A DNA stretch of 64,000 nt, taken from positions 1,364,001-1,428,000 of the forward strand of contig NW_026889786.1 in NCBI RefSeq assembly GCF_033153115.1. Reading direction: 5' to 3'. The DNA is from Saccostrea echinata (lineage: Eukaryota). Numbering within the stretch: the first letter of the stretch is position 1; each line of letters starts with the position of its first letter. Shown in pieces: positions 54,901 to 57,900 of this stretch. Under the pieces are notes generated by a model, which was not told the origin of the DNA, searched no databases, and saw only the letters and a list, made by a program, of their open reading frames with translations. The position numbers were made by a program, and so were the translations under genes.

Positions 54901-57900
54901 AATTTACAACAAAATGAATTTAATGTCCATTTCTGAGTAATAACCGAATCGTACTCCGACAGGATTTACAGACAAGTTCATAAACACAAAAATCCTTTGA
55001 TTTACAGTATAACAGGTAATTTCTGAATATTTTTTTTTTTTTGATAAGATACTTAAAAGTAGCACTAAGATTTCTGTATTTGCAATTCCATTCAAACTGT
55101 AATACTGTAGAAGATACAGGGTCTGAATAATTTTACAGCTTTGAAAGAACAAGAAAATTTAGCAAAGATTCAACAAACTCAGAAGAAAAAAAAAATATGC
55201 TGTATCACATCTATGAACATTGAAACTGAATGCTTTAATAGAATAAGTTGTATTCACAAAAATTAAATTGAACTTACTTTTGTATTCTTGATAAAGGAGC
55301 AAAGACACCATGTTTTGGTTTGCATGTGAAATATCTCTGACCATTAACAGATCCATCATTCTTTCCTGCTGGTTTGTCCAACTCTATTCCATACCAAATA
55401 CCTACAAGACATTGTACTCTCATGCTAAACTGAACAACTCTATTCCATACCAAATACCTACAAAATAGTGTACTCTCATGCTAGACTGAACACCTCTATT
55501 CTGAACCAAATATCTACAAGACATTGTATTCTCATGCTAGACTGAACAACTCTATTCCATACCAAATACCTACAAGACATTGTACTCTCATGCTAAACTG
55601 AACAACTCTATTCCATACCAATTACCTACAAGACATTGTACTCTCACGCTAGCCTGAACAACTGTATTCCATACCAAATACCTACAAGACATTGTACTCT
55701 CATGCTAGACTGAAAACACATGTACTACAATTTGTTCATGCTATGATAATTTCTACAGGGAACTCAATACCTTTAAGGAAATACAAGGCTATAAAATTAA
55801 AACTTTATTTAATGAACACATGATATGATGTTAATGCACATAAATTCATTAATTACAGTAAAACTCGCTTATAAGGAAGTCATAGGACTTGCTGTCCTTT
55901 GAATAACAACTGAAATACTAGTACTGGTAAGTTGAGTCTGCAAAATTGATAACACTTTAAGCACATAATACAACAACATACACAACTAAATAGAGTGTGC
56001 AAACAAATCAATTAAAGGTAAAGAAAAGTCAGAAAAGTGACATTTAAATAAAGTCAACTCAAACAACATTCCAAGGGCAGTATTTGTATTGTAAAATGCG
56101 TTTAATACCAGGTGCAAACTGTGTGTTGCCCGCAAATCTAACTGTGCCTTTCCTCTGTCCTGCAACAATCACACGTTCCCCCACCTCCATCTCAGCCAAG
56201 TTAGATATGGAATTTGTTCTTGCCTTAAGACCTAAATAGAATTTGTATGTACATTTTTGTAACTGATAACATTATTTCATTTAAAGTAAAATTGTATACA
56301 TAATTCCTTATTATAGATGGTATTTACTTGTTAGTACAATTTTTGAAACATTGTTCTGGAATGTATGAGGTATTTCTTTCTGACTATGAAATCCCCAACA
56401 TAATAAACATAAAAAAAAATTTAAAAGGCTTTCTATACATCAAGTATGAATACTGATTAAAGGATATCATTTCAAAGTATAAAAATATTATTTCTTCTTC
56501 TTTACTGATATCTGATAATTACCTGTATCAACCCTGGCCTTGACATTTGACACATCCTCTGACCCTGCCTGATCATATTACCTGTATCAACCCTGGCCTT
56601 GACATTTGACACACATCCACTGACACTGCCTAAAAATTACCTGAATCAACCCCGGCCTTGACCTTTAACACATCCACTGACCCTGCCTGATAATTACCTG
56701 TATCAACCCTGGTCTTGACAATTGACACATCCACTGACCTGGCTGATGATATTACCTGTATCAACCCTGGCTTTAACATTTGACACATCCACTGACCCTG
56801 CCTGATAATTACCTGTATCAACCCTGGCCTTGACATTTGACACATCCACTGACCCTGTCTGATAATTACCTGTATCAACCCTGGCCTTGACCTCTAACAC
56901 ATCCACTGACCCTGTCTGATAATTACCTGTATCAACCCTGGCTTTAACATTTGACACATCCACTGACCCTGCCTGATGATTACCTGTATCAACCCTGGCC
57001 TTGACATTTGACACATCCACTGACCCTGCCCTCTGAACTGGGGACTTGTGAGGAGAAATGGCTGGAGACCGAGGTCGGGGAGCTGAGCCCGGTTTGGCTA
57101 TCTTACTGACTGGAGCAAATATTCCTAAAATAATAGATAATATAGAAGTGATAATACCCAACAGTCTTTATACTCTTCAAAATACATGTTATCATTTTTT
57201 TTAACTTTGAATTTTTAAAAAAATATATTTTTAGAAGAATTTAGTTATAAAAATGTTAGGTTATACTGCATCAAAAAAAAATTTATTCTCATTATCTTTT
57301 CATTGTAAACCCTTGTTAAAGTCAAGTACATATGTATTTACATGAATAAATATGACAGCTTTATACATATATTTTAAGTACTGGAGTTTAAATTATTGTC
57401 TGTCATCTTTATGATCTAGTTTTACCATGATTCTTGGGACACTGAAAATAGGAGATGCCACCAATGCTCCCATCATTTTTGCCACCGGCATCATCCAATT
57501 CTATCCCTGCCCAAATCCCGGCAGCAAACTCTGCTGGTCCACAGTACCTCAGTGTTCCCATCTTTAATTACAGAACACATCAATTAAAAGTTAGGCTTAT
57601 TACTCCCCTACAAAGGACATGTACACCTACCAAGCAGCTACTTATACTGGAGAGCTTGTTTCTTCTTCAGTTCATTTATCATGTCCTACTTATACACCTA
57701 TATTTTTCAAAATTATTGCAAAGGATGTTATTTGAACATTACGGGACTAAAGATTTTAACTTTGACAATTTACCTTCAGGCCCCCGACCATGACTTTGTC
57801 ACCGAGAGCCAGCCCCAGTGATTGTAGAGTGACCTTGCTCTGTACAAGGTCATAGTTAGGAGGGGGTTGTTTGGGTGCAGGCTGACACGCCTCCTGTAGA

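What the first reader, a model, noticed from the sequence alone, without database searches (positions are those of the whole stretch)
55380..57029. Two unrelated AGGT-centred tandem amplifications of almost equal period in consecutive introns
Seen: the 57-bp donor array and the 56-bp acceptor array share no sequence, yet both straddle an exon-intron junction containing AG|GT and flank exon 7 within 1.7 kb. Established: tandem duplication of AGGT-containing segments is a proposed route to intron gain or extension because the coding sequence is preserved. Inference: this may be a snapshot of splice-junction-seeded minisatellite growth, possibly a general process in this genome. The partial exon copy in LMBRD2 also covers a donor.
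Basis: inference. Interest (0 to 1): 0.7.

Follow-up and report, generated by a model that had tools for sequence, protein, structure and literature searches.

The report
Oyster splice-junction "mirage" minisatellites
In an oyster CLIP3/4-like gene one splice donor is repeated 9 times and one splice acceptor 6 times, yet the assembled transcripts use only the copy next to the exon, so these are likely harmless "mirage" repeats of a kind known from lancelets and humans; in the genes sampled such repeats sit on exon borders about 2.5 times more often than chance but do not prefer AGGT.

Summary
Both arrays are real and unrelated: 57 bp x 9 over the exon-6 donor and 56 bp x 6 over the exon-8 acceptor of a rock-oyster CLIP3/4-like gene. 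They duplicate existing junctions, so they lengthen two introns and create none. Transcript contigs use the exon-proximal copy, although the spare copies score about as well. This is the known "mirage" class (amphioxus; human F7).

Locus-unique arrays span a junction in 19 of 83 cases against 7.3 expected (P about 3e-5): strong in dyneins (12 of 39), weak in ABC genes (7 of 44). About 1.5% of junctions carry one. AG|GT is not favoured (13 of 20 donors, background 60%; 4 of 10 acceptors, background 25%). Periods near 56 are common.

So "general process" is supported; "AGGT-seeded" and "intron gain" are not. The scan noted mirages before, in this genome and others, and an edge bias in a worm.

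The parts
49679..60716 (-). CLIP3/CLIP4-like gene (ankyrin repeats, three CAP-Gly domains), coding span
   Evidence: tblastn and spliced alignment of named oyster orthologues; five upstream joints seen in transcript contigs
56984..57124 (-).
56512..57030 (-). 57-bp x 9 donor mirage; last exon-like base of each copy at 56984 (used), 56927, 56870, 56813, 56756, 56698, 56641, 56582, 56523. Copies 2-5 would add 19 codons each, in frame, without a stop
   Evidence: use of copy 1
56109..56231 (-). Exon 7 (123 nt); its own splice sites are single-copy
55379..55714 (-). 56-bp x 6 acceptor mirage; AG ends at 55682, 55626, 55570, 55514, 55458 and 55402 (used). Use of any upstream copy would shift the frame or meet a stop
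   Evidence: use of the last copy
55278..55401 (-). Exon 8 (second half of CAP-Gly domain 2); its first 23 nt are the last copy of the acceptor array
8374..8450 (-). Single decayed copy (82%) of an exon end plus donor of the LMBRD2-like gene (source 8819-8894; donor CAT|GTATGT)

Best explanation
These are two independent minisatellites, each a head-to-tail copy of an existing exon-intron border; the transcript contigs use only the copy next to the exon, so the arrays are likely neutral passengers that lengthen the introns. Shown: the anatomy, the splice choice in the dominant transcript, the unchanged protein, and a roughly 2.5-fold excess of such arrays at exon borders in the sampled genes, with no preference for AG|GT. 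Inferred: birth by a local DNA tandem duplication and growth by slippage or unequal exchange; tolerance because splicing takes the first donor after the exon and the acceptor giving the shortest exon (exon definition or scanning, as tested for human F7); removal of any acceptor errors by nonsense-mediated decay; and an excess at borders that most likely reflects a higher birth or survival rate of duplications that include exon-edge DNA, with wholly exonic ones purged.
For: In the same 2302-nt contig (X3) and 2137-nt contig (X5), 56233 and 56985 map to one record base, so zero extra units are included. In 4 of 4 runs laid the sequence joined to exon 7 is 55367-55396, which runs into the non-repeated part of exon 8. 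All 13 oyster-cluster proteins printed have no 19-residue insert. The 8 spare donors score at the 62nd-81st percentile against the 57th for the used one; the used acceptor (12th) is equalled or beaten by 3 of 5 spares, so position decides, not strength. Survey: dyneins 12 of 39 against 3.55; ABC 9 of 46 against 3.71; both 21 of 85 against 7.5, or against 9.2 with dispersed repeats masked; 19 of 83 against 7.3 per gene with two paralogue-shared arrays dropped. Same anatomy and behaviour in PMC3087553 (passages) and PMC1557585 (abstract and Discussion).
Against: Only contigs were available; they drop rare isoforms, and acceptor errors would be degraded, so low-level use of spare sites is not excluded. 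The runs' RNA status is a guess by the tool. In X1 the graph is broken at the donor and cannot tell copy 1 from similar copies. The ABC replicate is weak once paralogues are dropped (7 of 44 against 3.46, P 0.04) and not significant for periods of 30 or more (4 of 19 against 2.62, P 0.24). Arrays cluster by gene (7 of 30 in one dynein), so the P values overstate independence. The cause of the edge excess was not identified: strictly intronic arrays near edges are 10 of 60 against 6.6 expected, and intronic units are not GC-rich overall (0.298 against 0.315).
Confidence: 0.8

Rival explanations
1. AGGT acts as a seed: tandem duplication of AGGT-containing segments is a route to new introns, caught in progress.
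For: Both arrays contain AG|GT. Intron 6 has AGGT at both ends and intron 7 has GGTATT at both ends. The model is established for exonic duplications (PMC3443670, section 8), and PMC3087553 proposes mirages as a possible step to new introns.
Against: No new intron exists here. AG|GT among surveyed mirages is 13 of 20 donors (background 584 of 967, P 0.43) and 4 of 10 acceptors (244 of 979, P 0.22). AGGT is not at the unit borders. The acceptor test has low power.
Confidence: 0.07
2. The donor ladder is a functional alternative-splicing device that adds 19-residue steps to the linker between CAP-Gly domains 1 and 2.
For: Period 57 is a multiple of 3, copies 2-5 are open in frame, and their donors score at least as well as the used one.
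Against: No contig joined an inner copy to exon 7 among those listed (tables were cut). No insert in 13 oyster-cluster proteins. Donor-mirage periods show no excess of multiples of 3 (6 of 20). Copies 6-9 are out of frame.
Confidence: 0.05
3. Upstream acceptor copies are used and then rescued by recursive splicing, because joining exon 7 to a copy rebuilds a donor.
For: For 4 of the 5 upstream copies the rebuilt donor scores 5.3-7.0 bits against 4.3 for exon 7's real donor.
Against: The same word is rebuilt in the mature mRNA at the used acceptor, so it is not special to the copies. 6 of 10 surveyed acceptor mirages lack GT after AG. No intermediate was seen, and contigs could not show one.
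Confidence: 0.05
4. There is no real edge bias; the excess comes from my null model or my choice of genes.
For: Two gene families only, an own spliced aligner, dispersed-repeat filtering against about 1.4 Mb, strong clustering by gene, weak ABC replicate.
Against: The excess holds under four nulls and three exon margins. The genes were picked by Pfam family before any repeat was seen. The confidence filter dropped real mirages, and one was counted as intronic (C40). This rival concerns the survey only and is compatible with the local explanation.
Confidence: 0.25

Closest known systems
Amphioxus 'mirage' minisatellites (Adh3, globins BflGb6/BflGb9, troponin C, PGBD5). PMC3087553 passages and one PMC3902484 passage read; the original Adh3 paper was not seen.
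   Same: Tandem copies of an exon-intron border, at 5' and at 3' borders, similar identity between units (80-100% here, 81-100% in BflGb6), and normal splicing retained.
   Different: A mollusc. An excess at borders is measured here; the passages I read give no such count. Length polymorphism and somatic instability were not tested here.
Human F7 intron 7 37-bp VNTR (PMC1557585; abstract and Discussion read)
   Same: The first unit spans the donor, and only the most upstream donor is used, even where other copies would keep the frame.
   Different: In F7 the spare sites were shown by mutation to be functional; not tested here. F7 has no acceptor-side array.
Intron gain by tandem genomic duplication (PMC3443670; passages and section 8 read)
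   Same: Tandem duplication of a segment containing AGGT with the coding sequence preserved.
   Different: That model duplicates an exonic segment and uses one AGGT as donor and another as acceptor to make a new intron. Here the units include intron sequence and no new intron forms.

Membership tests
Mirage minisatellite | Tandem unit spans an exon-intron boundary | tested here: met
   48+9 nt and 33+23 nt units
Mirage minisatellite | Unit derived from the locus itself, not a dispersed satellite | tested here: met
   Only own-locus matches; the search can skip very common words
Mirage minisatellite | Spare copies keep splice signals but the mRNA is spliced normally | tested here: met
   Contigs (dominant form only); site scores
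Mirage minisatellite | Copy-number variation between alleles or cells | tested here: inconclusive
   Run X1 holds low-depth array contigs whose unit order, read by eye, is not that of the window (tables 5, 5c), which hints at a variant allele; no copy number can be read from them
Intron gain by tandem genomic duplication | Duplicated segment is exonic | tested here: not met
   Both units include intron sequence
Intron gain by tandem genomic duplication | A new intron is bounded by the duplicated AGGT copies | tested here: not met
   Each intron's other splice site lies outside its array; 291 and 427 nt remain without the extra copies
Intron gain by tandem genomic duplication | Intron absent at the orthologous position in relatives | not testable with these tools
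   No relatives' genomes are held for this window; only spliced contigs of a relative were seen (X10)
Recursive splice site | Acceptor followed directly by a donor that is used in stepwise removal | not testable with these tools
   The motif is present; no raw or nascent RNA reads among the 15 runs listed

The most novel reading that the evidence does not exclude
In oysters, new tandem duplications arise preferentially across exon borders, about 2.5-fold and already among arrays of under 3 copies (7 of 50 against 2.9), independent of AGGT. This would point to a mutational process tied to exon edges, for example to transcription or splicing in the germ line, that has placed ladders of near-identical splice sites at roughly 1 in 65 junctions and so offers thousands of natural tests of positional splice-site choice.
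Probability: 0.3. Interest if true: 0.55.

Novelty: new member of a known kind. Interest (0 to 1): 0.27.

Why it matters
The locus itself is ordinary: a known repeat type with no detected effect on the protein. What has some value is the count. Mirages are described from single genes; here they occupy about 1.5% of the junctions sampled and are over-represented at exon borders without needing AGGT. If this holds genome-wide, it gives a measurable route of intron growth and a large natural set for asking why the spliceosome takes the exon-proximal copy among equal sites, on the acceptor side as well as the donor side.

Tried and rejected
AGGT seeding: rejected on frequency and on border position. 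Shared origin of the two units: rejected by shuffle test. Dispersed satellite origin: no match outside the locus. Special meaning of periods 56 and 57: 7 of 30 periods lie at 50-62 and 16 of 435 pairs differ by 1 nt or less; a 51-bp acceptor-side array (ending 1 nt into the exon) and a 51-bp donor array lie about 460 bp apart in another gene. GC preference and edge clustering of intronic arrays as causes of the excess: not supported. Dating the arrays: not possible; no relatives' genomes are held, and X10 covered exons only. No listed run is on record as RNA and none is kept as raw reads. The first, HSP-based exon count over-split exons and was replaced by a spliced aligner. Left out of the survey: two dynein loci (C16 and a fourth on C25), two that looked like duplicates of others (C81, C132), ABC block a14 (no usable protein), 311 of 827 dynein and 112 of 422 ABC introns that failed the confidence filter, and arrays that were dispersed or had periods of 120-170. 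Paper searches for an oyster case and for a genome-wide enrichment in invertebrates returned 0 papers with all terms; searches listed no such title. These are exact-phrase searches of an open-access library only.

Full report
1. Observation. Tandem Repeats Finder reports arrays at 55379-55714 (56 bp, 6.0 copies) and 56512-57030 (57 bp, 9.0 copies). They lie in a minus-strand gene for an ankyrin and CAP-Gly protein. Its orthologues are named CLIP3-like or CLIP4-like, and the closest named protein I aligned is from Saccostrea echinata (99-100% over the well-aligned exons). A spliced alignment with the Pacific oyster protein puts the donor at 56984|56983, exon 7 at 56231-56109 and the acceptor at 55402|55401. 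The 57-bp unit is 48 nt of exon plus 9 nt of intron; the 56-bp unit is 33 nt of intron plus 23 nt of exon. The units are unrelated and match only their own locus. Copies are 80-100% identical to each other.

2. What the transcript does. I laid contigs of five runs, in two calls of four, on the stretches beside the arrays. In one search all 4 runs join exon 7 to a sequence that reaches the non-repeated part of exon 8 within 23 nt, which is the last acceptor copy. For the donor, one contig in X3 (2302 nt) and one in X5 (2137 nt) appear in both calls. In X3, 56104-56233 maps to record 1050-1179 and 56982-57123 to 1176-1317; in X5 the figures are 895-1024 and 1021-1162. The four-base overlap is the AGGT present at both ends of the intron, so no extra unit is included. 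A related organism (X10) has the same join. X1 holds the array and the rest of intron 6 at depth 4-9 against 108-123 for the spliced form, which fits unspliced RNA or DNA. All 13 oyster-cluster proteins printed lack a 19-residue insert. Limits: contigs show the dominant form only, and the runs' RNA status is guessed.

3. The spare sites look usable. With weight matrices from 826 introns of this genome, the used donor is at the 57th percentile and the 8 spares at the 62nd-81st. The used acceptor is at the 12th; the 5 spares are at the 12th, 8th, 12th, 4th and 34th. Donor copies 2-5 are in frame and open, so their products should be stable if made; every upstream acceptor leads to a frameshift or a stop. 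That position decides the choice is therefore well supported for the donor. For the acceptor, decay of faulty messages could hide errors (nonsense-mediated decay is established knowledge, not tested here).

4. No intron was gained. The extra copies make up 461 of 752 nt of intron 6 and 280 of 707 nt of intron 7. The rest is non-repeated, and each intron's other splice site lies outside the array. The tandem-duplication model of intron gain needs an exonic segment whose two AGGT copies become donor and acceptor (PMC3443670, section 8). That is not the anatomy here. AGGT lies inside the units, and I saw at most a few bases of similarity at the borders (by eye).

5. Is it general? I took 50 kb around 16 dynein heavy chain genes (found) and 14 blocks around ABC transporter genes (found; 17 gene models in 13 blocks). 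I annotated them with a spliced aligner, run on the CLIP gene as a check (its upstream introns agree with the joints), and kept introns with good alignment on both sides: 516 of 827 and 310 of 422. Arrays were TRF hits with period 10 or more and score 60 or more, excluding dispersed families and periods 120-170. The null places one founding unit uniformly over intron and junction-spanning positions. Dyneins: 12 of 39 span a junction, 3.55 expected (P 6e-5). ABC: 9 of 46, 3.71 expected (P 0.006). Together: 21 of 85 against 7.5, or 9.2 with dispersed repeats masked. With a per-gene null and two paralogue-shared arrays dropped: 19 of 83 against 7.3 (P 3e-5), ABC alone 7 of 44 against 3.5 (P 0.04), ABC with period 30 or more 4 of 19 against 2.6 (P 0.24). 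The excess is present for arrays under 3 copies (7 of 50 against 2.9) and with 5 or more (10 of 21 against 3.5). Arrays cluster by gene, so these P values are optimistic.

6. Is AGGT needed? Counting each junction by its exon side, 20 of 967 donors and 10 of 979 acceptors carry a mirage (1.5%). AG|GT occurs in 13 of 20 (background 60.4%) and 4 of 10 (background 24.9%); neither is significant. Periods run from 13 to 96 (median 46.5), with 7 of 30 at 50-62, and three pairs lie within 2.5 kb of each other. At 1.5% per junction, a gene with 24 junctions expects about 0.37 mirages and has two or more about 5% of the time (my arithmetic), more with clustering. The pair in this window is therefore mildly unusual at most.

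7. Mechanism. Shown: anatomy, splice choice in the dominant form, unchanged protein, excess at borders in the sample, no AG|GT preference. Inferred: local DNA duplication, growth by slippage or unequal exchange, tolerance through exon-proximal site choice. Not resolved: why borders are favoured. Intronic units are not GC-rich overall (0.298 against 0.315; 0.346 for periods of 30 or more), and strictly intronic arrays lie within 25 nt of an edge in 10 of 60 cases against 6.6 expected, so neither composition nor simple edge protection is shown. A birth or survival advantage for units that contain exon-edge DNA is my best reading.

8. Known relatives. Tandem repeats across exon-intron borders that leave splicing intact are called mirages in amphioxus (PMC3087553, passages; PMC3902484, one passage). 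The human F7 VNTR is the tested donor-side case, in which only the most upstream site is used (PMC1557585, abstract and Discussion). I reached both through earlier notes of this scan and then read the passages. The scan has notes of mirages in this genome (parkin, pyruvate carboxylase) and of an edge bias in a worm; I did not check those loci. My searches found no paper on an oyster case or a genome-wide count, within an open-access library. I did not open any supplements; those of PMC3087553 hold the unit alignments.

9. Verdict. Real, ordinary at the locus, a new member of a known kind. Interest 0.27.

Noticed in passing
G000:C28, ABCB1-like paralogues (loci L131-L140): The homologous donor (ATT|GTAAGT) carries a mirage in three paralogues: 38-bp units in two close copies (7.6 and 12.6 copies) and an 83-bp unit in the third. 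This means a long-lived array or repeated birth at one junction.
   Followed up: no
G000:C12:5294001-5344000 (L113-L117): One dynein heavy chain gene holds at least 7 junction-spanning arrays, and more by eye, while several other dyneins hold none.
   Followed up: partly
G000:C5:15931001-15971000 (L154-L157): An ABCC gene with a 33-bp x 63 donor mirage, and one exon with a 51-bp array at its acceptor and a 42-bp array at its donor (these two junctions were below the confidence cut-off).
   Followed up: no
window 47862-48073: A compound 33/40-bp array holding CAGGTAG on the minus strand, about 1.6 kb past the CLIP stop codon and at no splice junction that I mapped.
   Followed up: partly
window 35157-36068, 2120-2555, 548-1219: 166-bp, 146-bp and about 127-bp satellites; arrays of the same periods recur in many of the surveyed introns and were excluded as dispersed families.
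   Followed up: no
window 50924-51292 and 52413-52619: Two clusters of a short internally repeated element (core GACAATATGT) in CLIP introns; likely a small mobile element.
   Followed up: no
window 56983-56232 and 56108-55402: Intron 6 has AGGT at both ends and intron 7 has GGTATT at both ends, so the joints are ambiguous by 4-6 bases. AG|GT at both ends is expected in about 15% of introns from the background rates.
   Followed up: partly
window about 24900-45600, + strand: A many-exon cadherin-like gene (read by eye from ORFs) ends tail to tail with the CLIP gene; I saw no junction-spanning array in it among the TRF rows.
   Followed up: no
window 55849-55886: A 30-35 nt intronic word matched by many unrelated contigs in all four runs, so a fragment of a common repeat.
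   Followed up: no
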